Counted from the stretch's first letter, positions 1 to 32,894 are shown. The stretch: DNA of 64,000 nucleotides from Candidatus Woesearchaeota archaeon (GCA_013202845.1 JABMPT010000008.1:5415-69414); one strand, 5' to 3'. Numbers and translations: made by a program. Notes: a model not told the origin generated them from the sequence alone.

Positions 1-447
1 AGGAATAAAATACCTGTTATAACCGGGAAAACAACTCCTTTCCACATTGGAAGAGCAGAGGTTTTCAAGAAAGGAACAGATGTAACTATAATTGCTTGTG
101 GAATAATGGTTAACGAAGCATTGAAAGCATCGGAAGAATTGTATAGTCACGGAGTGAATGCTGAATTAATAAACTGCCACACAATAAAGCCCATTGACAA
201 AGCTAAGATAATAGCTTCCGCAAAGAAAACAGGTTGTGTCGTGACAGCAGAAGAACACCAGAAGCATGGTGGATTAGGAAGTGCAGTTGCAGAAGTGATT
301 GTTAAGCATCACCCAGTGCCGATGGAGTTTGTAGCAGTGAATGACAAGTTTGGAGAAAGCGGCAAACCAGACGAATTAATGAAGAAATATGGATTAACTT
401 CTAAAGACATAGTTCATGCAGTGAATAAAGTCGTTAAAAGGAAGTAA
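1..447 (+). CDS. transketolase C-terminal subunit, 5'-truncated by the window edge
   Basis: Frame 1 is open from position 1. The C-terminal sequence (GGLGSAVAEV..., ...PDELMKKYGLT) matches the transketolase C-terminal domain family. Stop TAA at 445-447. Confidence 0.75.
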   Translation, partial: RNKIPVITGKTTPFHIGRAEVFKKGTDVTIIACGIMVNEALKASEELYSHGVNAELINCHTIKPIDKAKIIASAKKTGCVVTAEEHQKHGGLGSAVAEVIVKHHPVPMEFVAVNDKFGESGKPDELMKKYGLTSKDIVHAVNKVVKRK

Positions 448-490
448 TGCTTGCTCGGGGCATAATAGAAGAGATAAGAATCAGATTTAA

Positions 491-1009
491 TTATTTCAAT
501 TTACTAAAATACTTTGAGAACTTCTGAACATATGAATTCTCAATTAAACCTTGTTCTGTTTCACTAGTTAGTCTAAAACCTGTAGCAAGAACAGCGGAAG
601 CAATTCCATTCAAAGGAATCTGCCAAGTAGAAGAAAGCAAAGGATCCTGAGAACCGCCAATAAGATGAGATAAATAAGTTGCACCAAAAGCAAAAGCAGT
701 AGTGCTAACAGTAGAAGTACCAATAGCTAAATTTCTATTAGGAATATTAGTTGCAATATACTGACAAATTCTCGTATTAAAACCGCCGATAAGTAAATTA
801 TAAAAAAACTGATTACGAAAAACAACCGCAGCTTCCAAAGCACCATAATCACTATTAATAAAAGCATTAATGCCGCCAATAAGAAAACCGCTCAAAGCAC
901 CAACCTTATAATTTATACCTTTGGAAGTGAAATCATAAATACGCCTAATAACACCAGGGTGGTTCTTAACAACAGAATCATATTCAGAATCAACTAAATT
1001 CTCATCCAT
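491..1009 (-). CDS. hypothetical protein (Gly-rich, possibly membrane-associated)
   Basis: 172-aa ORF with no recognisable motif. Confidence 0.35.
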   Translation of the reverse strand: MDENLVDSEYDSVVKNHPGVIRRIYDFTSKGINYKVGALSGFLIGGINAFINSDYGALEAAVVFRNQFFYNLLIGGFNTRICQYIATNIPNRNLAIGTSTVSTTAFAFGATYLSHLIGGSQDPLLSSTWQIPLNGIASAVLATGFRLTSETEQGLIENSYVQKFSKYFSKLK

Positions 1010-1141
1010 GCTTAAAGGAAATAAAAATAGTTTATATACTTTAAGAAAAAAGATGAGGGGAAAGAAGGGTTGATAAGTGTTTGGGAGGGGGAGGCGGAAG
1101 GATTTCGGGATGTTTTATACTAAAGTAAAGAATGTGAAACT

Positions 1142-1945
1142 CTATTCTGGGCTTTGGCTTTTCTTCGTTGTTAAAAGAATTGTCTTGTACGGAAGAGAAA
1201 GATTATCTGGCTCATCTTTCAACAACTCAGATAAATCATCTAAAAACTTTTTTGATTCTTCATCAGGTAAAGAACTAACCCATCCCCAAGTCCTTATTAA
1301 TTTAACGTACTTGTCCTTTGTTAATTCTAAATTCCAATAATGGGTGTTTACTTCAGTTGGTTCAAACAAACCACTTGTATCTAACTTATCAATATATCTT
1401 TTTGGTGAACCACAATCAGGAGGAAATATTGGACAATGTTTAAGATATAAATCTCTTACTTGTGCAACTAAACCTCTTTTATCATAATCCTCAAAATTCC
1501 AAAAAGCAGCAAGTGTTCCAGAATCTTTTAATAAATCAGAAATTTTTTTATAACCAACTTCTGGTATAATCCAATGAAGAGCTTGTCCGGAAATAATTAA
1601 ATCAAACGATTCTTTCGACAAATCCACAGTTTCAAATTCTCCAACAACATAACTAACATTTGGTAAAGTTGAAGATTTTTCCCTTGCAATATCAATTAAT
1701 TCTTCACTAAAATCTACTCCAATTACTTGATAACCTCTTTCACCAAATAAAATTGTAGCTCTTCCTGGACCACAACCAATATCTAAAACATCACCATTAT
1801 CTGGAACTCCTGAAATTTCAATAACATCATCAACCACCGAACTAGGATAAGTAGGTCTAGCTTCATCATACAAAGCACTATTTTTTCCAAATTCTTTCTT
1901 TATTTCGTTAGGTGGATCCATTATAATTTCCAAAATGAAGAACAA
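1142..1945 (-). CDS. class I SAM-dependent methyltransferase
   Basis: Motif I VLDIGCGPGRATI, followed by the acidic loop GVDFSEEL. Confidence 0.7.
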   Translation of the reverse strand: MFFILEIIMDPPNEIKKEFGKNSALYDEARPTYPSSVVDDVIEISGVPDNGDVLDIGCGPGRATILFGERGYQVIGVDFSEELIDIAREKSSTLPNVSYVVGEFETVDLSKESFDLIISGQALHWIIPEVGYKKISDLLKDSGTLAAFWNFEDYDKRGLVAQVRDLYLKHCPIFPPDCGSPKRYIDKLDTSGLFEPTEVNTHYWNLELTKDKYVKLIRTWGWVSSLPDEESKKFLDDLSELLKDEPDNLSLPYKTILLTTKKSQSPE

Positions 1946-2000
1946 GTTTTTAAGTCTTTACTTTGTTTTGGAAAAAAACTATATTTGAGAGAGAGTAAGA

Positions 2001-2047
2001 GATTGTTTGCTGGTGGCATTGGAAGAAGTGATGTCAGCTCGGGGCAC
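2001..2047. repeat. composite repeat copy (block 3 + GC hairpin block 4)
   Basis: gattgtttgctggtggcattggaagaagtgatgtcagctcggggcac. Confidence 0.65.
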
Positions 2048-2095
2048 TATTATTTAGGATAAGAAAAAGGGCATAACTATTTCTATATTGCAAGC

Positions 2096-3430
2096 TTATT
2101 TCTTCCTTTCTTTTCCATCAATATACGCATGCAGGTGATGATATCTCTTTGCGAGTTCTCCTTGATGTGCGATTACCGCTTTTTTGAACAATTTAGGTAT
2201 GTTTAGTTCTAGTCTTTCTTTGCTATAATCTGCTTTTACTAGTTGAGGTATAAATTGTAGTAATGCATCTCCAAATGATTTTGAAGCTTCTCTAGGTAGT
2301 TCTATGGGTAGTTTATCTTGTGCTAGTATTACTGGTCCAAATCCTTCTACTCCATCTTTTACTTTCTCTGTTAATGGTTCATATACATATACTGGGTTTT
2401 CGCTTGTCGTTGCTTTTGTCGTTAGTTCTATTGACCCTTCTATGTCGCATGATATGTCTGCTATTACTCTTAGTTTTGGATTTGGATTGAATTCGTAGAA
2501 TTGTTTCATATAACTTAGTGTTACTAGTCTTGGAAACTTCGGTTCCCAGTATATTCCGTTTACCATTATGCTTAGGTATGGTATAAACTTTTCAAATTTG
2601 CTTGTGAATCTTTCTGGATACTTTCTATATAGATAGCTGTCAAAGTTTCCTCCTTCTTTTTTCATAAGAATGTCTGATTTTTTAAATTCAACTATGTATA
2701 TTACTCCGTTTGAGAATTTTCCTTTTCTATAAAATGCTCCTAGTTCATCAGCAGATATGTTTATGGATGGTAGTAATCTGATGATTTCTTGTGATGCTTT
2801 TGAAACTCTTCCAAATCCTGTGAATCCAATAACAAGTGGTGTTAATTGGTTTGGCAGTCCTTCTTTTTTGATTTTTTTACCTATGTTCTTGATAACTTTT
2901 TTTATTTCAGCTAAACTATCATATGTACATGTTTGTTTTAATTCTTCAAATGGGTTTTCAACTCCATCCCATTTTAATCTTTTACCAAAAATCCATAAGG
3001 CATTAATCATTCCAACATAACCTGCATAATCACCAAAGAATACTACTCTTCTTCCATTATCTCGCTTTACTAGTTCATAATCAATTAAAGTAATTTTTTT
3101 CTTAAGAATTTGCTTGAGCATTCCCATATTGTATTTTTGACCTTTGATTGTATGAGAAAAAAACAAATAAGTTTTGCCTGCTATTAGCTCTTTAGCTGGA
3201 ACTTCTTTTACTCCTAGAATAACTTTACATGGTTTTAAGTCTCTTGAGATAGTTGCACCTGTCGCTCTATATTCTGCATCTTTAAAAATACGTAGTTTTG
3301 AAGGTTGAACTATTACTCCAATATCTTTATGTTCATGAATTAGTTTTTTAACATGCTCTGGTGTTAATACAACTCTTCTCTCATCAACATGGCCTGTTTC
3401 TTTTTTTATACCAATAAACACTTTCTCCAT
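2096..3430 (-). CDS. saccharopine dehydrogenase / LOR-SDH (alanine dehydrogenase/PNT-like) family protein
   Basis: 444 aa; architecture and length resemble lysine-ketoglutarate reductase / saccharopine dehydrogenase-like enzymes. ATG start at 3430. Confidence 0.5.
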   Translation of the reverse strand: MEKVFIGIKKETGHVDERRVVLTPEHVKKLIHEHKDIGVIVQPSKLRIFKDAEYRATGATISRDLKPCKVILGVKEVPAKELIAGKTYLFFSHTIKGQKYNMGMLKQILKKKITLIDYELVKRDNGRRVVFFGDYAGYVGMINALWIFGKRLKWDGVENPFEELKQTCTYDSLAEIKKVIKNIGKKIKKEGLPNQLTPLVIGFTGFGRVSKASQEIIRLLPSINISADELGAFYRKGKFSNGVIYIVEFKKSDILMKKEGGNFDSYLYRKYPERFTSKFEKFIPYLSIMVNGIYWEPKFPRLVTLSYMKQFYEFNPNPKLRVIADISCDIEGSIELTTKATTSENPVYVYEPLTEKVKDGVEGFGPVILAQDKLPIELPREASKSFGDALLQFIPQLVKADYSKERLELNIPKLFKKAVIAHQGELAKRYHHLHAYIDGKERKK

Positions 3431-3546
3431 AAAAGTAATAATTTCATGTCAGGCTTTAAACTTTCCTATTTCTCAAATAATCTTTTGAATCATAAAAGAA
3501 TATTTAAAGGTTTTACAAATATAGAGTAACATCAATATATTTGTTT

Positions 3547-3616
3547 TCGACATGAAGAAATGTTGAACAGAGTTGTTTAATAAGTGTTTGGGAGGGAAAA
3601 GCGGAAGATTTTGAAC
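3547..3616. repeat. composite intergenic repeat copy (blocks 1+2)
   Basis: Near-identical to 9590-9658. Confidence 0.7.
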
Positions 3617-4450
3617 TTATTCAACAGCTGCTGGAATTTTAGGAGCTCCATCAAACAATATTGTATTCTCAGGGATTTTTTCCTTCATTGTGCCAAACTT
3701 AATGTGACAATTAATACTATTCTTTTTACAGAATTCTATAACTTGTGTTGCACATTTTTCATAAAATTCCTCATTACCATTTCTAAACATACTGCTTTCC
3801 ACATTATAATTCAACTTTCCAAAAATGATGGTGTCTACAAAAGAAATTTTGTTTAATATTTCTAACAGGTTTTGCTTTTGTATACTCTCAGGAGGGTATG
3901 GCTCAACACTAACCCATGTTTTCAATCCTTGGTCATGAAGATATTTTAATGCTGCAATCCTTTTTTCATAAGGAGCGCTATAAGGTTCCCATTTTTTCTT
4001 ATAATTATTATCAAGAGAAACTAGAGTAATTCCATATTCATTATTAGCACCGAATTTTTCAATGTTCTTCAAAACTTTAGGATAAATTCCTTTTGTTAAA
4101 ACAGTGCATTTAATATTGTCCTTGTTAAGTCTTGCAATGATTCTCAGCGTTAAATGTTCAACTTCTTTATAACCACACATGAAAGGGTCTGTCATAAAGC
4201 ATAGATGAACAAATTTTATCTCATCTTTGTATTTTGGAATTTCCTTATCTAAGATTTCAATCGCATTTTCGACGATTTTAGGTTTTAGCCAGTCATGATA
4301 AGTTTTGACTCTCCCAAACCTTTTAGCCATATTGAAAGCATAGCAAGGAAAAGTACACCCATGAGAACAACCTTCAACATGATTGATACAGAAATCAGCG
4401 TATTCAACACCACTTTTATACAAAAGACTCTTCCTTTTAACACTCTCCAA
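3617..4450 (-). CDS. radical SAM / SplB (COG1533)-like protein with variant three-Cys motif C-x3-C-x3-C
   Basis: N-terminal GCSHGCTFPCYA resembles the GCSHxCxYCYA cluster of SplB-like radical SAM proteins but has one extra residue. Apparent TTG start. Immediately upstream of the TcmP-like gene. Confidence 0.5.
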   Translation of the reverse strand: MESVKRKSLLYKSGVEYADFCINHVEGCSHGCTFPCYAFNMAKRFGRVKTYHDWLKPKIVENAIEILDKEIPKYKDEIKFVHLCFMTDPFMCGYKEVEHLTLRIIARLNKDNIKCTVLTKGIYPKVLKNIEKFGANNEYGITLVSLDNNYKKKWEPYSAPYEKRIAALKYLHDQGLKTWVSVEPYPPESIQKQNLLEILNKISFVDTIIFGKLNYNVESSMFRNGNEEFYEKCATQVIEFCKKNSINCHIKFGTMKEKIPENTILFDGAPKIPAAVE

Positions 4451-4513
4451 GTCCTAACACCTCATACTTCACCCTTTTTACAATAAAATAATAATAGTAT
4501 ATAATAGTTTTGA

Positions 4514-5596
4514 TTATGAAAATATCACTGAATCTTCTTCATTTAAACCAGTTCTTGGCTTTCCGGTTTTAGTTTCTTTCTCAAATCGGTCTATTTTGGC
4601 TTTGCCTTCAATCTCAAGTTCTTTAATAACTTGACGAAAATGTTTTACAAGATAAACTGTTTCATCTAACTGATCACAAATGATTTCTTGAAAGGTTTTT
4701 GTTTTTTTCGAATATTCAGATAATAAATATTTTTTTAATTCTTTGAATTTTATATCATCATAGTCAAAAAAAGTCATTTGATTCTGATTCCTTCCTCTAT
4801 ATTCAACGCGTCCATGATTATATTTAGCGAAAGAACTCTTCATTATCTCACATCCTAGATAATAATTTGTTAAATGAAATAAATAATAATAAGTTCTTTT
4901 CATTAAAGGAAAACTTATTTTAAAAGGATATACAAATTCACAGAACTCTTTTAGTTTTAGACGATAAAGTTCTATTGTTTTATTTTCTTTATCTTGACCT
5001 GAGAACTTATTTAGAGATTTCCATTCATCAGAACCGAATAAGTCAGTCAAAACATTGCTAGCTTGTTCAACATTCAAATTTCTTATTATACCATCATACA
5101 TAAAATTTAAGAAAATCTCTGATTTCGGAATTTTCATCATTTTTTTTAAAGTTGTTAACTTGATTTTAAATCCGAAAGGATCAACAAAGAAAAAGGATGG
5201 GGCTAAATTTGTATGTTTGTCTAGAATTTTATTTATTGCTTTATCAAAATCTGAATTAATAAACTTAACTTCAACATCTAACTTTCTAAGTTCGAGAATT
5301 GTTTTAATATTATCAAGGTTTGATTGTTTGCTATCAATTATAATAAGACATGCGTCTCTTTTTAGACCTTCACTATTTTTTTTAATTATTTCCGCCGCAA
5401 GTATTGGAGAACCATAAAAAATTGATTCTTTATATTCATAGGCTCCAATTCCGCCAAACCCATCAAAATAATTTAAAGGACTAGATTTTCCAACAATTTT
5501 AATCCATTTATCAAAATAATCTGCAAATACCAAATGTTTTATTTTAGTGTGTTCTTGATATTTCCAAGTTTTAAAAGGGAGTTTTGTTTCTTTCAT
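4514..5596 (-). CDS. three-Cys-motif partner protein (TcmP-like)
   Basis: N-terminal HTKIKHLVFADYFDKW resembles the TcmP family signature. Gene pair with the 3-Cys protein, separated by a 63-nt spacer. First ATG at 5596 (the track's first M is GTG). Confidence 0.45.
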   Translation of the reverse strand: MKETKLPFKTWKYQEHTKIKHLVFADYFDKWIKIVGKSSPLNYFDGFGGIGAYEYKESIFYGSPILAAEIIKKNSEGLKRDACLIIIDSKQSNLDNIKTILELRKLDVEVKFINSDFDKAINKILDKHTNLAPSFFFVDPFGFKIKLTTLKKMMKIPKSEIFLNFMYDGIIRNLNVEQASNVLTDLFGSDEWKSLNKFSGQDKENKTIELYRLKLKEFCEFVYPFKISFPLMKRTYYYLFHLTNYYLGCEIMKSSFAKYNHGRVEYRGRNQNQMTFFDYDDIKFKELKKYLLSEYSKKTKTFQEIICDQLDETVYLVKHFRQVIKELEIEGKAKIDRFEKETKTGKPRTGLNEEDSVIFS

Positions 5597-5686
5597 CACA
5601 AAAAAGGTTGTTTATTATTATGGTAGTTTTGTATTTATATACTTTATGTGACCATGTCCAGTGCTGGAAACTTATTCATCAGAAGG

Positions 5687-5729
5687 ATTGTTTGTTGGTG
5701 GCATAAGAATTAATGTCCGCTCGGGGCAT
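5687..5729. repeat. composite repeat copy (block 3 + GC hairpin block 4), overlapping the 3' coding end of 5710-6267
   Basis: gattgtttgttggtggcataagaattaatgtccgctcggggcat. Confidence 0.65.
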
Positions 5730-6267
5730 ATTTATTCTTTTTTAAAAGAACCACTTTCCAAGTCACTTTTCCATCCTTATTCATTTTTACTTCAGGACGA
5801 ATATTGTAATTCGGCTCAATTTTACACTGTTCACAAGCAATCATATAGAGCACCGCAACTAATAATACACTATACACATGAAACTTTTGCCAATCATTAG
5901 AAGAACTAACTGCCTTAAGTAATTCTGCATTATCTGTATGAAACAATAACTCCATATTTTCAAGTTTCTTATTAACATCTTCAATAGTTACAGTAATTGA
6001 ATGAACGAGTTTATTTCTCAAATCAATAATTAATTTGATAAGATTGTAAGCACGTTTTTCTAAAACACCTTTACTCAAAAGAGCTTTACATCTTTCCTTA
6101 AGCGTTCCTTTAACACCCATCTTCTTACAAATAAAAAGTAAGTAATGCTCCATGTATAAATCAATATACAAAATAAGAACTCGAACGTCAAAAGTAGGTT
6201 TTTGACGTACTATTCCTTCAATGTCATTATAAAACGATATTAAATTAACAATTTTCTTCATAAACAT
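5710..6267 (-). CDS. HEPN-like protein (RN-x3-H motif)
   Basis: IDLRNKLVHS fits the HEPN R-x4-6-H consensus (RNxxxH). Helical, 185 aa. The C-terminal codons coincide with the repeated GC-rich hairpin motif. Confidence 0.4.
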   Translation of the reverse strand: MFMKKIVNLISFYNDIEGIVRQKPTFDVRVLILYIDLYMEHYLLFICKKMGVKGTLKERCKALLSKGVLEKRAYNLIKLIIDLRNKLVHSITVTIEDVNKKLENMELLFHTDNAELLKAVSSSNDWQKFHVYSVLLVAVLYMIACEQCKIEPNYNIRPEVKMNKDGKVTWKVVLLKKNKYAPSGH

Positions 6268-6581
6268 AAAAATACTTCTTGTATGTATTTAATTATTTTC
6301 TTTTTCTTAAATAACCACACAACAAAAACAACCTTTTCAAGAGTGAATCCGGAAAGAATCACAGGAACAAGCGAGGAAGGATAGTTTGTTGGTGGCATAG
6401 GAGGAAGTGATAAAGAAGAAGAATAATCATCGGGGTTATTATGGAAAGCAATAGATGTTGTATATGAGAATAAAATGTTTTCATCCTTCGAATATTGGAT
6501 ACGGGATGCAGACAAAAGCACACCAAGTGTGAAAACGGCAAAGAGAAAAATTACTAAAATTCTTGCTAATCCCGACAAATC

Positions 6582-6773
6582 TTATCTCACTCTGTACTCA
6601 TAAGCGTTTCTCCTACCGGCGTTCTTATACGTGAGGAGGTTTGTTTTCCTCAGCTTCTTCAGAGACATGGTCACTGAACCAATAGAAACTTTCAATCTTT
6701 TAGCAATATCTTTAGATGCAAACCATCTTCCTTTGTTCTTACACAGAAAATCATACACTTCTTGCTGCCCCAT
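6582..6773 (-). CDS. small winged-helix DNA-binding protein
   Basis: 63 aa, basic. SIGSVTMSLKKL.K..LL resembles a wHTH recognition helix. ATG at 6773. Confidence 0.45.
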   Translation of the reverse strand: MGQQEVYDFLCKNKGRWFASKDIAKRLKVSIGSVTMSLKKLRKTNLLTYKNAGRRNAYEYRVR

Positions 6774-6936
6774 CAAAAATCACCACTTATGATTTTTGTG
6801 AGTCTCAAAAAAGTCTTTTTTTGTTGCCCCATAATTACCGCTCTTTATGTATTTGAAACGTTGCAGTATATAAGCCTTTGTTTTTATATAGCAACATCCG
6901 TAAACAACCACAGAACAATCGAGAAAATTATTTTAT

Positions 6937-7668
6937 TCATATTTCAACTCCCTTCTTTTTTAAGTATATAAAAATAGGACCAGTGATCAAAGCAATAATC
7001 ATAACCAAGAGACTTCCATATAGAAATCTATCTAGTAAATACCAAACTGGTTTAAAATAAAAGAAGTACCTGATAGCAACTTTTAGCCCATGTATAATGA
7101 TGGAATATAAAACTCCTAGAACCAGCACATTTGAAATATTAAAATCCCCATAAGTTTTTATGAGTTTGATTAAAGAAAAAACAATCATTAAAGCCCATAA
7201 AGCCTGAGTTAAGTTTAGGAAATATGGTATGTTGTACTTTAAACCGATTACATATTGCGAAATGGCTATCAATATTGCTCCCAAAACATAATATCTTATT
7301 GGCCAAAGATATTCTTTTAGAGTTTTGCCAGCGATTCTAGTTTTAAAAACGAATAGCAACATCAATGTGATTACGACTGTTATCAATGGGATAAGAAAGA
7401 ACAGGTCATTGTATTTTTTTTGCAGGCTCAGAGGAAGGATTCTGCTTTGTTCTTCCCGCGGACATGGAACCAAATCATCCCCCGCATAACATTTTTCTGT
7501 TTGTTCAACAAGAGTGGTGGCTCTATCAAGTTTGTCTTCTTCAATACAATCCTCTGGACATAAATCATAATTTTCATTGCTTAAATCACAAAATCCATCT
7601 CCGCAAATCGCCTGGACTAAAGATATATTTATCAGAATAATAAGAATTAAAAAACAAATTCTTTTCAT
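6937..7668 (-). CDS. secreted/membrane protein with N-terminal Cys-rich domain (CGDGFC motif) and multiple transmembrane helices
   Basis: Signal-peptide-like N-terminus, Cys-rich CGDGFCDL...CPEDC, then hydrophobic helices. Confidence 0.45.
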   Translation of the reverse strand: MKRICFLILIILINISLVQAICGDGFCDLSNENYDLCPEDCIEEDKLDRATTLVEQTEKCYAGDDLVPCPREEQSRILPLSLQKKYNDLFFLIPLITVVITLMLLFVFKTRIAGKTLKEYLWPIRYYVLGAILIAISQYVIGLKYNIPYFLNLTQALWALMIVFSLIKLIKTYGDFNISNVLVLGVLYSIIIHGLKVAIRYFFYFKPVWYLLDRFLYGSLLVMIIALITGPIFIYLKKKGVEI

Positions 7669-7822
7669 TTTTTACCTCTTTTTAAATAATATTAACTAAT
7701 CCACTATTTAAATATACTTAAAAAATATCTTTTTTTGGTACAAAGAAATTGTCTTACTTTTATCGAATTTCTATGACTTCTCAAAATGCCCCTTTATCCT
7801 TGTTCTTGATGTCCCACATTTA

Positions 7823-8059
7823 TCAACCAATCCTTCCCATCATCTCCCCACAATACTCCTCAACATCATCATGTTCCAAAACAATTATGTCCTCTCTGTC
7901 ATAAAACAAATCATAGCACTCATGCTCATCCATCAGCTTCTCTTCCATCTCAGCAACCTCGTTCTTCAACTCCTGAACCTTGCTCATCGCTATCAACAAC
8001 GCAAATAACAGTATCAAAGCCAAAGTCCTCGGCTCAAATATCCTGCGTATGAATTTCAT
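7823..8059 (-). CDS. small secreted hypothetical protein
   Basis: 78 aa with a hydrophobic N-terminus. Confidence 0.3.
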   Translation of the reverse strand: MKFIRRIFEPRTLALILLFALLIAMSKVQELKNEVAEMEEKLMDEHECYDLFYDREDIIVLEHDDVEEYCGEMMGRIG

Positions 8060-8140
8060 TTTATTTTAACCTCTCCTTGATATCAACATCCTTCTTCTTG
8101 TACTCCTCCCATCCTTCAGGAGTACAAAAATCACTGTTTT

Positions 8141-8211
8141 CGCCATGAAGAATTGATGAGAGAGGTGTTTAACAAGTGTTTGGGAGAAAAAAGCGGAGGA
8201 AATGCGGGAAG
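8141..8211. repeat. composite intergenic repeat copy (diverged block 1 + block 2)
   Basis: cgccatgaagaattgatgag...aagtgtttgggagaaaaaagcggaggaaatgcggg. Confidence 0.6.
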
Positions 8212-26367: not shown

Positions 26368-26445
26368 ATAAAGTCATCTGATTTCATAAAGAATAATAGG
26401 TAAGTATAATATAAAAAGTTTTTGAAAATAAAGTAAATCTGATTC

Positions 26446-27282
26446 TTAACCCATGACTTGTTCGGGAAAAGCATTTTGTGTAGAACCAATTCTTTTCATG
26501 ATGTTAACATAGTATTTATTATTTATATGAGGATATTTTTTAATTAAGGACACATATTCGGATTTTAAAGTTTTAATGTCAGTTGAAGTGTGACCTTTTA
26601 ATTGTTCAAAGATTGAAGGATTACAAACTGCTGCTCGTCCAATCATAACTCCTTTTACACCTAGTTTTTTCATATAATTTACTTTTTCAACAGAGTCTAT
26701 ATCACCATTTGCAATTATGGTTTTTCCCGTATCTACACATTCAGGATAGATTTTATCGTCCGCCTTTGACTCATAGTCTTCCTTACCATGTCTTGCATGA
26801 ATTATGAAAAAGTCAGCGTCAACATTTTTTAGTAAATTAAGATAAACAAATTTTTCTTTTTCATACTGGTTCAATCCTAAACGCATTTTTATAGAGCAAG
26901 AAAAGCCATTATTCTTTACTATTTGAACTAGTCGATTAACTTTTGATATTCTTTTCATCAAAGCACAACCTAAGCCAATTTTTATTAGGTGAGGACTTGG
27001 ACAACCAAGATTAAAATTTATTCCTTGAAAACCTTCTGTTGGTTTAAATTTTTTTAAGAAAAGTTTAAGATGATCTTCGTTCTTGGCAGCTAATTGTATC
27101 TGTGTAGGAACATTGTTTAGAATCTCAATTCTTCTCTCTGTACTCTTATTGTTTCTTATCAAACCAGTCAATCGAGTCATCTCAGTAAAAGTAAGATCAG
27201 CTCCATGATTAAAACAAAGCTCTCTAAAAGCATTATCAGTATAATCCTCCATAGGTGCAAGCATGAACTCAAAATCTTTCAT
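26446..27282 (-). CDS. tRNA-dihydrouridine synthase (Dus family)
   Basis: MLAPMEDYTD, NLGCPSP, TIM-barrel pattern. Confidence 0.75.
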   Translation of the reverse strand: MKDFEFMLAPMEDYTDNAFRELCFNHGADLTFTEMTRLTGLIRNNKSTERRIEILNNVPTQIQLAAKNEDHLKLFLKKFKPTEGFQGINFNLGCPSPHLIKIGLGCALMKRISKVNRLVQIVKNNGFSCSIKMRLGLNQYEKEKFVYLNLLKNVDADFFIIHARHGKEDYESKADDKIYPECVDTGKTIIANGDIDSVEKVNYMKKLGVKGVMIGRAAVCNPSIFEQLKGHTSTDIKTLKSEYVSLIKKYPHINNKYYVNIMKRIGSTQNAFPEQVMG

Positions 27283-27433
27283 AAATAAAAGTTTTGAGAA
27301 CTAGTTTAATAAAGGTATTGAATTAAAGCAAAAAATGAGCTTTATACCGAGTTGTTTATAAAGAGAGGATGTTATTTAATAGTTAGAAAGTATTATTTAG
27401 AAAATAAATAATATTAAACGAGGAAAAATTAAA

Positions 27434-27604
27434 ATGGAAGGACGAAATAGAAGCGGCGGAAGATTTAACGACTCCCCAAGAGAAATGCATAAAGCAACGT
27501 GTGCTGATTGCAAAAATGAATGTGAAGTACCATTCAAACCTACAGAAGGTAAACCTGTCTACTGTAAAGAATGTTTTTCAAAACGTAAACCACAAAGATT
27601 TTAA
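27434..27604 (+). CDS. small zinc-ribbon protein (C-x2-C ... C-x2-C)
   Basis: 56 aa, CADCKNEC...PVYCKECF. Not in the ORF track. Confidence 0.35.
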   Translation: MEGRNRSGGRFNDSPREMHKATCADCKNECEVPFKPTEGKPVYCKECFSKRKPQRF

Positions 27605-27700
27605 TTTCTAAGATTTTTGAATTACATAATTTTTTTATTCTAAGTTTTCTAACCAAAATAAGAGTGCCCCGAGCGCATCAAAAAGACTATTTTGTTTTGG

Positions 27701-28795
27701 TTATTGTTCAGGAAGTATTCCGTTTTCAAGATAGGTTTTGATTTCGAGAAGGCTTAGCCCTGCAAGCCCCAAGGTTTTAAGGCTGCGTTTTTTCTGGGCG
27801 AAATAATCAATATCTAATATTGCGGAACCAATAGCGACCATAGCCTGTGCTGTAGGTGTGGGAACATTAAGAAGCTCGCCCATTTCACAGTATAATACTA
27901 GCCCAAAGCCTATGTCTTCATGAAAATAGCGGTGATCTAATGTATTGGGACTGGTGAAACCAGCAAATCCCTTACCATTTTTATAACATTCTAGATAGTC
28001 CGTGCTTTCTGCATACCCTTGAGCCACGCAGGTCTCTGGATCAGGTCGAGCTGAATATCCAAAAGCCCTGAGAATGGCCATGCGTTCTTCATCAAGTTTT
28101 TTGATTAGCTTGGCTACCGAAGATGATAACCCTTGATTATAGAAAAGCATATCTTCATTTTCAAACCGTGCTCCATTTAAAAGGGCTATGGGTGGATGAA
28201 TCACGGGGTTAGCATTATTTAATCCTGCTTCAAGCACGCTTTTAGCACGCACAAGTCCCGGAAACAGTTTTTCAAGTGACGGTCCTACTTCATCGATTCT
28301 ATTGGCGGGAAAAGTACTGTATAAAACTCGTCCAACCTTCACTGCAATATTAATCTTGTTCCCTTTTGCTCGACATCCATAAGTAAGGGTATGAAATTCT
28401 CCAAGAAGCGGCAGTTCCTTCAAGCCCCTTTTACGAAATATATTGGCAAGATATAGTGATCCGCCGGTTGATCCTGGATTGAGTATAACACATTGCTCTG
28501 GTTTTACAAGAGAGGTAAGTTCCTGCCCTACTCTTTCGTGCGTGAGAGCCTGAGTACAGATCATAATCATGTCTGCACCGTTAACTGCTTTGGCCAAATC
28601 AGATGTAATAAACTCTAATTGGGCTGTTCCCTGTACTGCTCCTTGCAAAGTAATTTGAGGTTTTTCTTTGAGCATGTCAATATTAGCTGCATACTCAGGA
28701 AACTCGAAGAGCCGTACTTTTTTCCCCTGTAGAGCCAGGTCTCCAGCTGCAGCTTTACCACCATTACCAGCCCCAATTATTGCTATAGTTTCCAT
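27701..28795 (-). CDS. NAD(P)-dependent opine dehydrogenase-like oxidoreductase
   Basis: Rossmann motif IAIIGAGNGG; length and helical C-terminus as in octopine/nopaline dehydrogenase. Start moved to ATG at 28795. GC-richer than the flanks. Confidence 0.5.
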   Translation of the reverse strand: METIAIIGAGNGGKAAAGDLALQGKKVRLFEFPEYAANIDMLKEKPQITLQGAVQGTAQLEFITSDLAKAVNGADMIMICTQALTHERVGQELTSLVKPEQCVILNPGSTGGSLYLANIFRKRGLKELPLLGEFHTLTYGCRAKGNKINIAVKVGRVLYSTFPANRIDEVGPSLEKLFPGLVRAKSVLEAGLNNANPVIHPPIALLNGARFENEDMLFYNQGLSSSVAKLIKKLDEERMAILRAFGYSARPDPETCVAQGYAESTDYLECYKNGKGFAGFTSPNTLDHRYFHEDIGFGLVLYCEMGELLNVPTPTAQAMVAIGSAILDIDYFAQKKRSLKTLGLAGLSLLEIKTYLENGILPEQ

Positions 28796-28894
28796 TGTAA
28801 GAAGGAAAACAAATATGACGATATATAAAATCATTGTTTTAATTTATTTTCATCAGAGAATTAATCTTCTGGAATGTAGCCATGACCTGTTGAT

Positions 28895-30181
28895 TCAAAT
28901 ATTGCATCTTGCCTGGCTCAACACAGGAGCTATTGTTCGTTCAACAGCTTGATCAATTAGTGCTTCTGTCATGGCACCTGGAGGCGGTGCAATTCTGGTA
29001 TATGCTCTTCTTGTTTTAGGATTATAATGCCCGTGTTTCATGAATATTCTGGGATCTCTTCCTTGACCTAACAACATTTCCAGGCATGAATGCTTTGCTG
29101 TATCTACTCCCTCCAATTCCACTCTGATTAATAAACCTCTATGATCAACTGTGACTCCTTCTATTCCTTCTAATTGTCTAACAAAGTAATCTCCGAGTTC
29201 CTTAGCTCTTTTGGGAATTCCTTCTCTGTCTATATATTCAAGTGAAGCGCACGCAGCTGCACAAGCTAATGAATAACCACCAAAAGTGCTTCCATCACTG
29301 CCGGGTGTGTAGATTCTCATAAACTGCTCAGTTCCAACAACTGCTGAAACAGGAATAATGCCTCCTCCTAAGGCCTTACCCAAAGTTACAAAATCAGGTC
29401 TAGCTTCATCTCCATACTCTTGCCAAGCCATCATATAACCACATCTACCTAATCCTGTTTGAATCTCGTCTGCACCAAAGAATATATCCCTTTCTGTTGC
29501 AAGTCGTCTTATTGCCATATAATGGTCTTTTGTAGAGAATAATGGTCCTCCTTCTCCCTTGTGTGTCTCAACAAATATTCCAACTGTATTTTCGTTGATT
29601 GCAGCTTCAATAGCTTCAACATCATCATCAGCAACAACCACGCCCGGTGCTCTTGGCACTCTTCTGTTTGACTGGTCAGGATCAAACAGTGCATTTGATG
29701 CAAATATCCAGGTTCTTCCATGAAAATAATCCTTAGTAAGGATTACTTCAGGATTTTCAATGCCTCTTTCATGGCCATGCATTAATAACCCACTAATAGC
29801 AGAATCTGTTGCAGAACCCCCATCACTTTTTGAGAGAACTCTGTCATAACCAGTCAACTGCGCAACCAATTCGACAAAATCGGCATATCTTACAGAGAAA
29901 AGAGCTCTGCTTACCAAGTCACAACCATGCTCCATTTCTCTCTTTACAGCTTCTATAACCCCTTCATGCCCATGTGATAAGACTGCTGAGTAAGCAGATA
30001 GAAAGTCTAGTGCTTTGTTTCCATCTGGATCAAATAACCATGGTCCTTGTGCTCTATATACAACAAAAGGATAAGGTTCATAATTTCTTGCACTGTGACC
30101 CTCTATTCTTCTAATAAGCTCTGCACTTTGCGGTCCTAACGGACCATAGTTTCTATCTCTAAAAGGTATAAATTTTGCCAT
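28895..30181 (-). CDS. class III pyridoxal-phosphate aminotransferase (ornithine/acetylornithine AT-like)
   Basis: ADEIQTGLGRCG, TLGKALGGG. Start moved to ATG at 30181. GC-richer. Confidence 0.75.
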   Translation of the reverse strand: MAKFIPFRDRNYGPLGPQSAELIRRIEGHSARNYEPYPFVVYRAQGPWLFDPDGNKALDFLSAYSAVLSHGHEGVIEAVKREMEHGCDLVSRALFSVRYADFVELVAQLTGYDRVLSKSDGGSATDSAISGLLMHGHERGIENPEVILTKDYFHGRTWIFASNALFDPDQSNRRVPRAPGVVVADDDVEAIEAAINENTVGIFVETHKGEGGPLFSTKDHYMAIRRLATERDIFFGADEIQTGLGRCGYMMAWQEYGDEARPDFVTLGKALGGGIIPVSAVVGTEQFMRIYTPGSDGSTFGGYSLACAAACASLEYIDREGIPKRAKELGDYFVRQLEGIEGVTVDHRGLLIRVELEGVDTAKHSCLEMLLGQGRDPRIFMKHGHYNPKTRRAYTRIAPPPGAMTEALIDQAVERTIAPVLSQARCNI

Positions 30182-30261
30182 AATGAACACTCAATCTTAT
30201 TAATTTAAAAAAAACGGATTATATAAAGATATCTAAATAAGAATTAACTTTTTAGAAATCT

Positions 30262-31047
30262 TCAAAGGCTCTCTTGCGCCTCTCTTTTGCTTTGTCTGTA
30301 TAGCTCGTTAGAAGGGTTTAGTTCTATTGCTCTGTCAAAGTTTGGTATTGCTTCTTCTAGTTTTCCTTGGTCTGCTAGTACTTCTGCTTTGTTAATCCAT
30401 GCGTTTGAAAGTGTTGGGTCTATTTCTATTGCTTTATCATAGCATTTTATCGCTTCTTCTGACTTTTCTTGTTTGTCTAGTGCTGTTCCTTTGTTGTTCC
30501 ATGCCTTTGCGTATTCTGGGTCTAGTTCTATTGCTTTGTCATAGTGTTGTATTGCTTCTTCTAGCTTTTCTTGTTTGTCTAGTGCTAGTCCTTTGTTGTT
30601 CCATGCGTTTGGGTCTTTTGGGTTTAGTTCTATTGCTCTGTCTAAGTTTTGTATTGCTTCTTCTAGCTTTCCTTGTTTGTATAGTGTTGCTCCTTTGTTA
30701 CACCATGCATTTGCGTGTTTTGGGTCTAGTTCTATTGCTTTATCATAGCATTTTATTGCTTCTTCATATCTCCCCAAGTCATTTAGTGCTAGTCCTTTGT
30801 TGTTCCATACTGTTGCGTGTTTTGGTTTTAATTCTATTACTTTATCATAATTTCGTATTGCTTCTTCTAGCTTTCCTTGTTTGTATAGTGCTAGTCCTTT
30901 GTTGAACCATGTCGTTGCTTCTCCCTTCCCTATTACTAGCAAGAACAAATTTTGAAGTCTTCTTGTTATAGTTTGTTTTATCTTAATCTCTATCTCTGCC
31001 AACTCTTCAAACTCACGTTCCAGATCTAGTCTTTTATCCAAAGTCAT
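30262..31047 (-). CDS. TPR-repeat protein (paralog 2)
   Basis: Same N-terminus (MTLDKRLDLEREFEELAEIEIKIK) and TPR units as 20951-22147. Confidence 0.8.
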   Translation of the reverse strand: MTLDKRLDLEREFEELAEIEIKIKQTITRRLQNLFLLVIGKGEATTWFNKGLALYKQGKLEEAIRNYDKVIELKPKHATVWNNKGLALNDLGRYEEAIKCYDKAIELDPKHANAWCNKGATLYKQGKLEEAIQNLDRAIELNPKDPNAWNNKGLALDKQEKLEEAIQHYDKAIELDPEYAKAWNNKGTALDKQEKSEEAIKCYDKAIEIDPTLSNAWINKAEVLADQGKLEEAIPNFDRAIELNPSNELYRQSKREAQESL

Positions 31048-31066
31048 AATAATGGAAAGTAAATGA

Positions 31067-31083
31067 TTTTTTTAAAGGTTTTA
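31067..31083 (-). promoter_or_regulatory. TTTTTTTAAAGGTTTTA TATA-like promoter element of TPR paralog 2
   Basis: 20 nt upstream of the start at 31047. Confidence 0.45.
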
Positions 31084-31195
31084 CCAAAAACACATTAAGA
31101 ATTAATTTTTTCTTATGCCTTGAGCAAACTCAAAAACAGTTTCGTGACTACAAAAAACAACAAAATTTAAATATGTGGTCACCTTATAAGTTTAT

Positions 31196-32104
31196 ATGTT
31201 TCTTGAAAAGAGAAAAGCAGGAAAGAACATAAAATATTATTTGGTTCATTCATACAGAGATAAAGACAATAAAGTTGTAAAAATAAGACGATTTCTAGGA
31301 AGCAATTTATCAGAAAAAGAACTTAAAAAACTTAAAAAAAGAGCAGAAGAAATCATCAGCCAACAAATAGAAGATATGAAAACAAGTGTTTTTGACTTTT
31401 CTTTAACAGATAAAGAGATTCAATCGCTCAATAGATTCAGTGAAAAAATTGAAATTGTTCATTTTGATGATAAACAATGGCAACAATTTACAGAAGAATT
31501 CGTATATAATACTAATGCAATAGAAGGCTCAAAAGTATTAGAAGAAGAAGTCCCATACATACTAAGGAGAAAAGAAACAACAAACACTGATGAAATAGAA
31601 ACAAAAGGAGTTGCAAAAGCAGTTAAATTCATAAGAACTACAAAAGAAGATTTATCTTTAAAGTTGATGCTCAGATTACATGAGTTTTGTTTTAAAGGCT
31701 CAAGACCTTTTGCAGGTAAATTTCGAGATATTGAAGTAGGAATAAGAAATGGTTATGGAGAAATAATTCACCAAGGAACACTTGTTAAAGACCTAAATAA
31801 AGAATTAAATGAATTTATTTCATGGTATAAAAAAAATAAAAATAAGTTTAGACCATTGGTCTTAGCAGCAATCATACACAATCAATTCGAAGATATACAC
31901 CCATTCCAAGATGGAAATGGACGAGTGGGAAGATTGTTGTTAAATTTTGTTTTGTTAAAAAACAATTATCCGCCAGTAAACATCTTATTAGAAGATAGAA
32001 TAGAATATTACCACACATTACAAGAATATCAAAAAAACGATAAATTAAAACCAACACTTAAATTCTTAATAAAACAATACAAGAAAACACTGAAAAATAG
32101 GTGA
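31196..32104 (+). CDS. Fic/Doc family protein (AMPylation-type)
   Basis: HPFQDGNGRVGR Fic motif. Confidence 0.8.
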   Translation: MFLEKRKAGKNIKYYLVHSYRDKDNKVVKIRRFLGSNLSEKELKKLKKRAEEIISQQIEDMKTSVFDFSLTDKEIQSLNRFSEKIEIVHFDDKQWQQFTEEFVYNTNAIEGSKVLEEEVPYILRRKETTNTDEIETKGVAKAVKFIRTTKEDLSLKLMLRLHEFCFKGSRPFAGKFRDIEVGIRNGYGEIIHQGTLVKDLNKELNEFISWYKKNKNKFRPLVLAAIIHNQFEDIHPFQDGNGRVGRLLLNFVLLKNNYPPVNILLEDRIEYYHTLQEYQKNDKLKPTLKFLIKQYKKTLKNR

Positions 32105-32245
32105 CCACAAATAAAGAATATTAAATTATGGTAGACACCTTATAGACGAGAAGTTACCATTACAAATATATAATTAGTGTGTTTTTAGAGAAAAAGAAAG
32201 TGCCCCGAGCGAGAAAAAAAGGAATAAATAAAAAAATTAAATTAT

Positions 32246-32752
32246 TTATTCAGCAGAAGAATCTGCGTATAGGAATCTATACCAAGGGGCTTTCTCAGTT
32301 AATTTACCTTCATTATCTAAGTTAAACCTTTTAGTTGCTTTTCCTTTAATAAATCCAAAGTACTTTACTTGTTCTTTAGCTTTTATCTTAACTTCGCCAG
32401 TTTCTTCATCAACTTCTTCCACTTCAACATCTTCAAGAGTTCTATTAGCGACTCTTGCTTCAAAAGCTTCCATGTTTGTTTGTAGTCTTGCTCTTGCGTT
32501 CTCATTAGTGACTTTTGTCAAAGCCATTTCTAAACCAGTAACTTTAGGTTTACCAGCTTTTTCAGGTTTACCAACATCATCAGGTTTACCAGCATCTTCT
32601 GGCATATTAATAAGTTCTGGCTGACCAGTTTCATCAGGCATACCAGTAGTTTCCGGTCTGCCAACATCATCAGGTGCATTTCCCTGTCCTTGAGCCATAA
32701 CAATAGAACTCATCAAAAACAAAGCAATTAATAAAACTATAACTTTTCTCAT
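32246..32752 (-). CDS. secreted protein with Pro/Asp/Glu-rich short repeats
   Basis: Signal peptide; G.P(D/E)..G.P repeats. Confidence 0.4.
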   Translation of the reverse strand: MRKVIVLLIALFLMSSIVMAQGQGNAPDDVGRPETTGMPDETGQPELINMPEDAGKPDDVGKPEKAGKPKVTGLEMALTKVTNENARARLQTNMEAFEARVANRTLEDVEVEEVDEETGEVKIKAKEQVKYFGFIKGKATKRFNLDNEGKLTEKAPWYRFLYADSSAE

Positions 32753-32894
32753 AATATCACCGAATTTATGTATTATTATTCATATATAAAAAAGTTATTA
32801 TTTTACCCTAAAAGATTGAACGAATAATAAAGTGCCCCGAGCGAGCTTATCCCCTCTACAACCTTTATATATAAATCTTCTTTCCTGTTTTTTT

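What the first reader, a model, noticed from the sequence alone, without database searches (positions are those of the whole stretch)
447..32845. GC-rich hairpin 12-mer GTGCCCCGAGCG recurring at seven loci, once embedded in a coding C-terminus
The core, or its reverse complement GCTCGGGGCA(Y), occurs at 447-463, 2031-2047, 5713-5729, 24304-24320, 27664-27678, 32200-32213 and 32832-32845. At 24304 it can form a perfect 5-6 bp stem (TGCCC/GGGCA) with loop CGAGC. The copies lie at gene 3' ends, between convergent genes and next to A/T runs. At 5713-5729 the copy encodes the last residues (APSGH) of the HEPN-like protein. A 12-nt GC motif recurring seven times in 64 kb of AT-rich DNA is far beyond chance expectation. 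It could be a terminator or processing hairpin, a recombination site, or part of the mosaic repeat (block 4).
Basis: seen in the sequence. Interest (0 to 1): 0.6.

Follow-up and report, generated by a model that had tools for sequence, protein, structure and literature searches.

The report
Scattered tRNA-Glu 3′-end integration scars
The recurring GC-rich 12-mer is the last 11-15 bases of the tRNA-Glu gene, left as repeated "attachment-site" scars at the borders of small accessory-gene modules inside a 36-kb island of a DPANN archaeon; this is a known kind of feature, not a terminator hairpin.

Summary
The core GCCCCGAGC occurs 7 times in the window against 0.02 expected. Six copies are intergenic and one forms the last six codons of an ORF.

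The hairpin reading fails. Only one copy has the full 5-bp stem, and 19 copies from this and related genomes average 2.6 of 5 pairs.

The reverse complement, (CC)CGCTCGGGGCA plus a T-rich tail, is the 3′ end of tRNA-Glu in related AT-rich DPANN archaea: T-stem 3′ strand, acceptor 3′ strand and discriminator A. In five related contigs, solo copies form co-oriented arrays that start at an intact tRNA-Glu gene, always on its 3′ side (13 of 13). They bound modules that carry Fic, HEPN-MNT, PIN-MazE, Bro-N or HNH genes. In another relative, an SSV-type ("suicidal") integrase C-terminal fragment (PF16795) abuts the tRNA-Glu gene.

A syntenic relative lacks window 448-36522 altogether. All seven copies lie in this 36-kb island, and copy 1 sits at its left junction.

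Best explanation: these are att-core duplicates from repeated site-specific insertion at tRNA-Glu. In the window the tRNA body is gone and part of the array is inverted. No recombinase is present in the window, so the mechanism is inferred. This is a new member of a known kind.

The parts
453..463 (+). Copy 1, GCTCGGGGCAT: tRNA-Glu positions 64-73 plus one trailer base. It lies 5 nt after the stop of the transketolase C-terminal subunit, at the left junction of the island.
2037..2047 (+). Copy 2, GCTCGGGGCAC. It lies 49 nt downstream of the AlaDH/PNT-like gene 2096-3430(-), with the D15 block on its tRNA-body side (1997-2023).
5717..5729 (+). Copy 3, CCGCTCGGGGCAT. It overlaps the last six codons of the DUF4145/HEPN-like ORF 5710-6267(-), with the D15 block at 5682-5708.
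24304..24317 (-). Copy 4, CCCGCTCGGGGCAC: 14 nt identical to tRNA-Glu(UUC) positions 61-73 plus one base. It lies in the divergent spacer between the DEAD helicase and the Ski2-like helicase, and is the only copy with a perfect 5-bp hairpin.
27664..27675 (-). Copy 5, CGCTCGGGGCAC. It lies between the 56-aa zinc-finger gene (27434-27604, +) and the octopine-DH-like gene (27701-28834, -). Its trailer-side flank AACCAAAATAAGAGT resembles the trailer of the tRNA-Glu in L120.
32200..32214 (-). Copy 6, TCTCGCTCGGGGCAC: 15 nt identical to the tRNA-Glu 3' end of L046 type. Its trailer-side flank is 81% identical over 74 nt to the trailer of the intact tRNA-Glu in L002.
32832..32845 (-). Copy 7, CTCGCTCGGGGCAC (14 nt). 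It lies between two divergent TATA-like promoters. This is where the tRNA body would be expected, but a D5-type promoter block follows instead.
31116..31126 (-). Possible decayed copy, TGCCTTGAGCA: 3 mismatches, same orientation as copies 5-7. It lies just upstream of the Fic gene, so Fic would be bounded by copies on both sides, as in L019 and L039. Not significant on its own.
448..36522 (.). A 36-kb island absent from the syntenic relative L278, where transketolase is followed directly by rpiB and rpe. It holds all seven copies plus Fic, HEPN-like, NYN, DNA methyltransferase, MORC-like ATPase, TPR and helicase genes.
24436..26367 (+). Ski2-like helicase gene. In L002, L039 and L014 this gene is followed by the co-oriented array and then by an intact tRNA-Glu on the opposite strand. 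The window keeps the helicase and the array (copies 5-7) but has lost the tRNA body.

Best explanation
Each copy is a duplicate of the 3'-terminal 10-15 nt of the lineage's tRNA-Glu gene: the last 1-5 bases of the T-stem 3' strand (positions 61-65), the acceptor 3' strand TCGGGGC, and discriminator A73. It is usually followed by a T-rich, trailer-like sequence.

These copies are the 'core' (overlap) sequences of attachment sites. A mobile module that carries the same core recombines with the 3' end of tRNA-Glu. This rebuilds the tRNA and pushes the old 3' end away as a solo direct repeat. Repeated events build a co-oriented array of solo cores, each bounding a small module of accessory genes (toxin-antitoxin, Fic, restriction-modification and similar).

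The most likely enzyme is an SSV-type ('suicidal') tyrosine integrase, whose attP lies inside its own gene.

In the window the array sits downstream of the Ski2-like helicase, as in relatives. However, the tRNA body has been lost, a second group of copies (1-3) is inverted, and the whole assemblage forms a 36-kb island between transketolase and rpiB.

Shown: the identity with the tRNA-Glu 3' end, the arrays anchored at tRNA-Glu in relatives, one clean insertion with core duplication, an integrase fragment abutting tRNA-Glu in a relative, and the absence of the island from a syntenic relative.

Inferred: that a recombinase made the window's copies, which recombinase it was, and how the tRNA was lost and part of the array inverted.
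For: 1. A metagenome scan for GTTCRAATCNCGCTCGGGGCA returned at least 120 loci. In 7 of the 12 lowest-GC contigs ARAGORN called the match tRNA-Glu(UUC/CUC). In the other five it called none, because the genes contain introns or are cut by a contig end. BLAST of these tRNAs against the window matches only their last 10-15 nt, at all seven copies.

2. Solo copies lie on the 3' side of an intact tRNA-Glu and share its orientation in every case (13 of 13):
- L039: 6 solos.
- L127: 2 solos.
- L105: 2 solos.
- L002: 2 solos. Its tRNA has two introns.
- L014: 1 solo, carrying that genome's own variant core.

3. L127 compared with L120 gives an occupied site and an empty site. L127 has 455 bp inserted at the tRNA 3' end with the 11-12-nt core duplicated, and the displaced solo keeps the original trailer (95% identity over 40 nt).

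4. The modules between cores are typical island cargo:
- MNT+HEPN, Bro-N and Fic (twice) in L039.
- Schlafen/AlbA_2, MazE+PIN and Fic in L105.
- An HNH endonuclease in L127.
- Fic next to copy 6 in the window.

5. In L284-L287, a PF16795 integrase ORF (E 2.6e-34) starts inside the 3' end of tRNA-Glu, and its frame stays open across the core. This is what is expected of an Int(C) fragment. The mechanism is described in PMC3293823 and PMC8371274.

6. L278 is collinear with the window on both sides but lacks 448-36522. Copy 1 lies 5 nt from the left junction.

7. The same modules occur with different neighbours in different genomes. The AlaDH-like gene is 88.6% identical at the nucleotide level to its L019 counterpart, and blocks made of a core plus its flank are shared with L039 and L019.

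8. The order helicase, array, tRNA-Glu is conserved in L002, L039 and L014. The trailer flank of window copy 6 is homologous to the tRNA-Glu trailer in L002.
Against: - No integrase or integrase fragment is found in the window or in any of the arrays (Pfam; tblastn).
- No tRNA-Glu gene lies in the window or in the 9.5 kb to its left. The source genome's own tRNA-Glu was not retrieved.
- The shared core is short (11-15 nt, against 44 bp for SSV1).
- Copies 1-3 are inverted relative to copies 4-7. Copies 4 and 5 lie beyond the ancestral-looking trailer of copy 6. A simple tandem-insertion model does not predict either.
- The island sits at a site that carries neither a tRNA nor a core-like sequence in L278.
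- Three copies that share trailer-like flanks are not predicted by simple integration.
- All seven window copies keep the 10-mer intact, with no intermediate decay. This could mean they are recent, or that some function selects for them.
Confidence: 0.65

Rival explanations
1. An integron-like system that is still active. The tRNA-Glu-derived core would be the recombination site of integrase-less cassettes that a recombinase encoded elsewhere moves in trans. Such a system would assemble defence and toxin-antitoxin islands, including at non-tRNA sites, and invert segments between cores in opposite orientation.
For: - No array contains an integrase.
- Modules are very small (0.45-2.4 kb) and often hold a single gene.
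- The same module appears with different neighbours in different genomes.
- The island is not next to a tRNA.
- All seven window cores are intact.
- The zinc-finger gene has the core in opposite orientation in L127 and in the window.
Against: - No circular junctions or excision products have been observed.
- No trans-acting recombinase has been identified.
- Genes within modules point both ways, and decayed cores exist (L039 2857 and 5995, L019 5233, L002 7184). This fits fossil scars as well as it fits an active system.
- Canonical attC features are absent.
Confidence: 0.15
2. Homing-endonuclease-driven insertion. Free-standing HNH endonuclease genes would cut the conserved tRNA-Glu 3' end, and repair would copy in the endonuclease module, with neighbouring DNA hitch-hiking. 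The module would carry a copy of the tRNA end, so the tRNA stays intact.
For: The smallest clean insertion (L127, 455 bp) consists essentially of one 114-aa HNH endonuclease gene (PHROG HNH families, E 1e-5 to 7e-3). An HNH_3 gene also lies in the L284 element.
Against: - Only one array module carries an HNH gene.
- No HNH gene is found in the window's island.
- Homing does not normally create target duplications or long co-oriented arrays.
- The PF16795 integrase abutting tRNA-Glu gives a more direct mechanism.
Confidence: 0.07
3. A functional RNA or DNA signal unrelated to recombination. This could be a terminator or processing hairpin, a REP-like palindromic element, or a binding site for a regulator. 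The match to tRNA-Glu would then reflect co-option or coincidence.
For: - Five of 7 copies lie just downstream of a gene, followed (in the tRNA-sense direction) by T-rich sequence.
- Copies 1, 3 and 4 can form modest hairpins (-5 to -10 kcal/mol), and the consensus scan flags 5713-5729 as terminator-like.
- The 10-mer is perfectly kept in all 7 copies.
Against: - The stem is not conserved (mean 2.6 of 5 pairs).
- Copies 4 and 7 lie between divergent promoters.
- Orientation relative to the adjacent genes varies (L002 against L019; zinc-finger gene in L127 against the window).
- There is no Rfam match.
- The backbone regions have none: 27.5 kb in the window and 9.5 kb to its left.
- The exact match to the tRNA-Glu 3' end and the tRNA-anchored arrays would be unexplained.
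Confidence: 0.08

Closest known systems
attL/attR direct repeats of elements integrated in archaeal tRNA genes by SSV-type ('suicidal', Pfam PF16795) integrases, such as SSV1 in tRNA-Arg, pTN3 and pT26-2 (PMC3293823, PMC8371274, PMC7253208)
   Same: - The repeat equals the 3' terminus of a tRNA gene.
- The tRNA is rebuilt at one end and a solo copy is left at the other.
- Tandem, co-oriented arrays form.
- The cargo is accessory genes.
- In the relative L284, an Int(C) reading frame runs across the tRNA end.
   Different: - The core is only 11-15 nt, against 44 bp for SSV1.
- Modules are tiny and lack int(N)/int(C) pseudogenes.
- The window has neither the tRNA nor an integrase.
- The host is an AT-rich DPANN (Woesearchaeota/Nanoarchaeota-like) archaeon from a metagenome. 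The review read here (PMC8371274) lists the characterised enzymes of this type only from Sulfolobales, Thermococcales and Archaeoglobales/Methanosarcinales, and does not mention DPANN.
Bacterial and archaeal genomic islands at tRNA or tmRNA genes, flanked by a displaced tRNA fragment (Reiter, Palm & Yeats 1989, cited in PMC3293823; island finders that use tRNA fragments, from my own knowledge)
   Same: There is a variable island absent from a syntenic relative, it is bounded by a tRNA-derived repeat, and it is rich in toxin-antitoxin, restriction-modification and defence genes.
   Different: The island is not adjacent to the tRNA gene. It holds seven repeats in two orientations, where one pair would be usual.
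Integron cassette arrays and CALINs, including the archaeal integrons reported in Nanoarchaeota (PMC9668308)
   Same: These are arrays of small, often single-gene modules, each bounded by a recombination site. Arrays frequently lack the integrase.
   Different: The site is a non-palindromic 11-nt tRNA-derived core, not a 50-150-nt attC with R''/R' (RYYYAAC/GTTRRRY) boxes. Genes point both ways. No IntI is present.
REP/BIME elements and intrinsic terminator hairpins
   Same: These are short, GC-rich, intergenic repeats, often found after genes.
   Different: There is no conserved dyad symmetry and no RAYT transposase. The sequence is a tRNA end.

Membership tests
tRNA-derived att direct repeats of integrated elements | The repeat is identical to a terminus of a tRNA gene of the lineage. 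| tested here: met
   10-15 nt of every window copy equal the 3' end of tRNA-Glu genes in related AT-rich contigs. The source genome's own tRNA-Glu was not retrieved.
tRNA-derived att direct repeats of integrated elements | An intact (reconstituted) tRNA gene lies at one end, with solo repeats co-oriented on its 3' side. | tested here: inconclusive
   Met in the relatives L039, L127, L105, L002 and L014 (13 of 13 solos). Not met in the window: there is no tRNA-Glu in 64 kb plus 9.5 kb, although the helicase-array synteny is kept.
tRNA-derived att direct repeats of integrated elements | The segment between repeats is absent from an otherwise collinear relative (an empty site). | tested here: met
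   L278 lacks window 448-36522. L120 lacks the 455-bp module of L127.
SSV-type (suicidal) integrase elements | An int(C) pseudogene overlaps the reconstituted tRNA, and an int(N) pseudogene overlaps the distal repeat. | tested here: inconclusive
   Int(C) (PF16795) overlaps the 3' end of tRNA-Glu in L284-L287. None is found in the window. The D7-D8-D15-core blocks read as one frame, in the same phase as the L284 integrase frame across the core. However, they have no homologues.
Intrinsic terminator or processing hairpin | A stem is maintained across copies (by conservation or covariation), followed by a T/U run, co-oriented with the upstream gene. | tested here: not met
   The full stem forms only in copy 4, and the mean is 2.6 of 5 pairs over 19 copies. 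Two copies lie in divergent promoter regions, and orientation is inconsistent.
Integron attC sites | A 50-150-nt imperfect inverted repeat with R''/R' core boxes (GTTRRRY), and IntI nearby or a CALIN arrangement. | tested here: not met
   The conserved part is an 11-nt non-palindromic core, and the flanks are not conserved. There is no integrase domain in the island. No attC covariance model was available, so this was judged by inspection only.
REP elements / RAYT | Imperfect palindromes, plus an IS200/IS605-like RAYT gene in the genome. | tested here: not met
   No dyad is conserved. No Y1 transposase is found among the window ORFs scanned. The rest of the genome was not available.

The most novel reading that the evidence does not exclude
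DPANN archaea may carry a tRNA-Glu-anchored, integron-like cassette platform. An 11-nt core copied from the tRNA 3' end would serve as the recombination site for integrase-less mini-modules (Fic, toxin-antitoxin, HNH, restriction-modification). A recombinase encoded elsewhere, possibly a mesophilic relative of the 'suicidal' SSV-type integrases, would move these modules in trans. The same recombination would drive inversions and the relocation of whole arrays away from the tRNA.
Probability: 0.18. Interest if true: 0.65.

Novelty: new member of a known kind. Interest (0 to 1): 0.4.

Why it matters
The result turns an anonymous repeat into a usable marker. In this DPANN lineage, the 11-mer CGCTCGGGGCA outside a tRNA flags the borders of acquired modules and delimits a 36-kb accessory and defence island.

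Mobile elements and their integration systems are poorly documented in DPANN archaea. The review of archaeal tyrosine recombinases read here (PMC8371274) does not mention the group. The PF16795 Int(C) fragment abutting tRNA-Glu in a relative therefore places this integrase family in an AT-rich DPANN contig, outside the archaeal orders that review lists for the characterised enzymes.

If the mini-modules are still mobile, this would be a cassette-capture system distinct from integrons.

For annotation, the result warns against calling these motifs terminators. It also shows that ORF ends or starts running through them are by-products of the inserted sequence. Two examples are the APSGH tail of the HEPN-like ORF and the false ATG start of the DEAD helicase ORF at 24320.

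Tried and rejected
- **Hairpin or terminator.** I folded 19 copies on both strands and counted the proposed stem pairs. The stem is not conserved.
- **Rfam.** Searches at gathering threshold and at permissive E-values found nothing at the copies.
- **Motif as the 5' end of a tRNA.** Rejected: position 8 would be G rather than U, and no D-arm follows.
- **Hidden or intron-split tRNA-Glu bodies in the window.** ARAGORN with introns and BLAST of seven tRNA-Glu sequences found only the 3' ends.
- **A viral or plasmid attP carrying the motif.** Three scans of viral contigs gave only phage tRNA-Leu clusters and chance coding hits.
- **Integrase remnants.** tblastn of two DPANN integrases against the window and the arrays found none.
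- **The D7-D8-D15 blocks as an Int(N) coding remnant.** They form one reading frame in phase with the integrase frame across the core. However, the word-based search found no candidate, the exhaustive phmmer search of 1.84 billion proteins gave 0 hits, and there is no Pfam hit. This is left as unexplained.
- **The source genome's own tRNA-Glu locus.** I tried to reach it through the syntenic inositol monophosphatase neighbour, but no protein from the source contig was returned.
- **Integron attC reading.** Rejected by inspection; no attC model was available.
- **L002 8223.** I first counted this as a solo copy. It turned out to be the 3' exon of a tRNA-Glu with two introns.


Full report
**The observation**

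The core GCCCCGAGC occurs seven times in the window, against 0.02 expected from dinucleotide shuffles. The positions are 453, 2037 and 5719 on the minus strand, and 24306, 27666, 32202 and 32834 on the plus strand. Two more copies have one mismatch, and copy 1 has two.

When the copies are aligned in one orientation, three things are conserved: an A-rich stretch, then R-T, then GCCCCGAGC, usually followed by G. Similarity drops on both sides of this.

The window is 34% G+C. It comes from a DPANN archaeon. The nearest genome records are Nanoarchaeota/Woesearchaeota MAGs with about 80% amino-acid identity on the Ski2-like helicase. The source contig is JGI Ga0335114_10915424, 339 kb.

With a coding fraction of 0.88, six copies are intergenic and one overlaps the last six codons of an ORF.

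**The hairpin reading**

The stem TGCCC/GGGCA is complete only in copy 4. Over 19 solo copies from the window and four related contigs, the mean is 2.6 of 5 possible pairs, and most copies have no stable fold on either strand. What is conserved is one arm plus the 'loop', which is not how a structural element behaves.

Copies 4 and 7 sit between divergently transcribed genes, next to their TATA-like boxes. No transcript should end there. Rfam gives nothing at any copy.

**What the sequence is**

A search allowing two mismatches in related loci hit the reverse complement of real tRNA-Glu 3' ends. This suggested that CGCTCGGGGCA consists of T-stem positions 63-65, the acceptor 3' strand 66-72 and discriminator A73.

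I tested the prediction by scanning metagenome contigs for GTTCRAATCNCGCTCGGGGCA. The scan returned at least 120 loci. In 7 of the 12 lowest-GC contigs ARAGORN called the match tRNA-Glu(UUC) or tRNA-Glu(CUC). In the other five it called none, because the genes contain introns or are cut by a contig end.

BLAST of seven such tRNAs against the window matches only their last 10-15 nt, at exactly the seven copies. Copy 4 matches 14 nt of the GTGGG/CCCGC T-stem type. Copies 6 and 7 match 15 and 14 nt of the GCGAG/CTCGC type. No tRNA-Glu body exists in the window or in the 9.5 kb to its left.

**Arrays anchored at tRNA-Glu in relatives**

- L039 has six solo copies, two of them with one mismatch, followed by an intron-containing tRNA-Glu.
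- L127 has two solos and the tRNA.
- L105 has two solos and the tRNA.
- L002 has two solos and a tRNA-Glu with two introns. I had first mistaken its 3' exon for a solo copy.
- L014 has one solo, which carries that genome's own variant end, TGCTCCGACCG.

All 13 solos are co-oriented with the tRNA and lie on its 3' side.

L120 and L127 give an empty site and an occupied site. L127 has 455 bp inserted at the tRNA 3' end with the core duplicated, and the displaced solo keeps the original trailer (95% identity over 40 nt).

The modules between cores encode typical island cargo:
- MNT+HEPN, Bro-N, two Fic proteins and a DnaJ-like protein in L039.
- Schlafen/AlbA_2, MazE+PIN and Fic in L105.
- A 114-aa HNH endonuclease in the 455-bp module of L127.

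**A candidate enzyme**

None of these arrays, and no window ORF, carries an integrase.

In L284-L287, another AT-rich DPANN contig set, the picture is different. A PF16795 ('archaeal phage integrase', SSV-type) ORF begins inside the 3' end of tRNA-Glu. Its frame stays open across the core (...NPARGT...), and its catalytic domain occupies residues 130-287.

This is the arrangement described for 'suicidal' integrases. Their attP lies within the int gene, so integration leaves int(C) overlapping the rebuilt tRNA and int(N) overlapping the distal repeat (PMC3293823; PMC8371274).

**The window's own context**

The relative L278 (transketolase 80% identical) is collinear with the window on both sides. 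The type-II-secretion-like genes and transketolase N/C match window -5953 to 444. The genes from rpiB and rpe through eIF6 match 36526 to 52674. In L278 only 68 nt separate transketolase from rpiB, and that spacer has no core-like sequence.

Window 448-36522 is therefore a 36-kb island relative to L278. All seven copies lie in it, and copy 1 is 5 nt from its left edge. There are none in the 27.5 kb of backbone to the right or the 9.5 kb to the left.

The island carries:
- Fic, a DUF4145/HEPN-like protein, a second HEPN-like protein and a NYN protein.
- Three DNA methyltransferases and a MORC-like ATPase.
- TPR paralogues.
- The DEAD and Ski2-like helicases.

In L002, L039 and L014 the Ski2-like helicase is followed by the array and then by tRNA-Glu on the opposite strand. 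The window has the same helicase followed by copies 5, 6 and 7 in that orientation. The trailer-side flank of copy 6 is 81% identical over 74 nt to the tRNA-Glu trailer in L002. Where the tRNA body should follow copy 7, a promoter block of a duplicated gene family begins instead.

Modules are shared with other genomes but sit next to different neighbours:
- The AlaDH-like gene is 88.6% identical at the nucleotide level to its L019 counterpart, and a core lies downstream of it in both.
- A block made of the core plus 45-70 nt is shared with L039 and L019.
- The zinc-finger gene has the core in opposite orientation in L127 and in the window.

**Interpretation**

The copies are attachment-core duplicates of the tRNA-Glu 3' end. 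The most economical mechanism is repeated site-specific insertion at tRNA-Glu, followed by decay of the recombinase genes, loss of the tRNA body at this locus, and inversion or relocation of parts of the array.

Several features do not fit a simple tandem model. The core is short. No int fragments remain. Copies 1-3 are inverted. Copies 4 and 5 lie beyond the ancestral trailer. The island sits at a site that is not a tRNA in L278. These features leave room for two alternatives: an integron-like system working in trans that is still active (about 0.15-0.2), or a contribution from homing endonucleases (under 0.1).

The terminator or regulator reading is unlikely (under 0.1).

**Novelty**

tRNA-derived att repeats that bound integrated elements have been known since 1989. 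This case is a new member of that kind, in a lineage where integration systems are little described. The module density is unusual, and the array is orphaned from its tRNA.

Noticed in passing
window 1070-1115, 3546-3622, 8138-8214, 9588-9664 (D7/D8); 1997-2023, 5682-5708, 6376-6402, 9653-9679 (D15): These mosaic intergenic repeats are specific to this genome. Joined as D7-D8-D15-core, they read as one frame (...FRHEEMLIEVFNKCLGEESGGIASCLLVALEEVMSARGT) with synonymous-type differences between copies. The frame is in the same phase as the L284 integrase frame across the core. They may be Int(N) remnants, but no protein homologue exists in 1.84 billion representatives or in Pfam. The D15 core ATGCCACCARCA also resembles the tRNA-derived core with 3 mismatches.
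   Followed up: partly
L002 8222-8425 (-); L127 10046-10184 (-); L092 2184-2293 (-): The tRNA-Glu(UUC) genes of these DPANN relatives carry extra introns. L002 has one at 37/38 and a second of about 80 nt in the T-loop (59/60). L127 has one in the D-loop region plus the canonical one. ARAGORN missed these genes or mis-called them (as tRNA-Lys or tRNA-Arg).
   Followed up: partly
L284 6588-7537 (also L285-L287, L101): An SSV-type (PF16795) integrase C-terminal fragment abuts tRNA-Glu in an AT-rich DPANN contig. Type I restriction-modification genes, a TPR gene and an HNH_3 gene follow it. The distal att copy was not within the DNA retrieved.
   Followed up: partly
L127 9592-10047: A 455-bp insertion at the tRNA-Glu 3' end consists essentially of a single 114-aa HNH endonuclease gene. 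Pfam does not detect it; PHROG HNH families do, at E of about 1e-5.
   Followed up: partly
window 20951-22147, 30262-31047, 34558-35034: Three TPR-repeat genes are built of 102-nt (34-aa) units. They share upstream and downstream blocks (families D5, D6, D10, D13), which points to recent duplication within the island.
   Followed up: no
window 19974-20486 and 32853-33365: A paralogous pair of 156-aa genes of unknown function (87% nucleotide identity) has similar promoter blocks. One copy starts right after tRNA-Glu copy 7.
   Followed up: no
window 9889-19050: This is a cluster that looks like defence or restriction-modification genes. It holds a MORC-like HATPase_c_3 protein plus two unknown genes and a D12-class methyltransferase, a HEPN (RiboL-PSP/Apea-like) protein, a second D12 methyltransferase and an N6/N4 methyltransferase.
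   Followed up: no
window 31196-32104; L039 1728-2732 and 3614-4774; L105 3777-4715; L019 4217-5224; L002 7284-8165: A Fic/DOC-domain gene lies next to a tRNA-Glu-derived core in five independent contigs. The L105 protein is 47% identical to the window's. The reason for this recurrent association is unknown.
   Followed up: partly
window 2096-3430 vs L019 5309-6643: The AlaDH/PNT-like gene is 91% identical at the amino-acid level (88.6% nucleotide) between the two genomes, while the Ski2-like helicase is only 81% identical. The gene sits in different neighbourhoods in the two genomes, which suggests recent exchange of this module.
   Followed up: partly
window 23163-24320 (-): The mechanical ORF for the DEAD helicase starts at an ATG inside copy 4 (MPARGT...). 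Comparison with L002 places the true start at about 24254 (MKSF...).
   Followed up: yes
window 37058-38059, 38756-40060, 41735-43539: These genes (a queuosine-salvage protein and others) are present in the window backbone but have no counterpart in the collinear L278 segment. They are smaller indels outside the main island.
   Followed up: no
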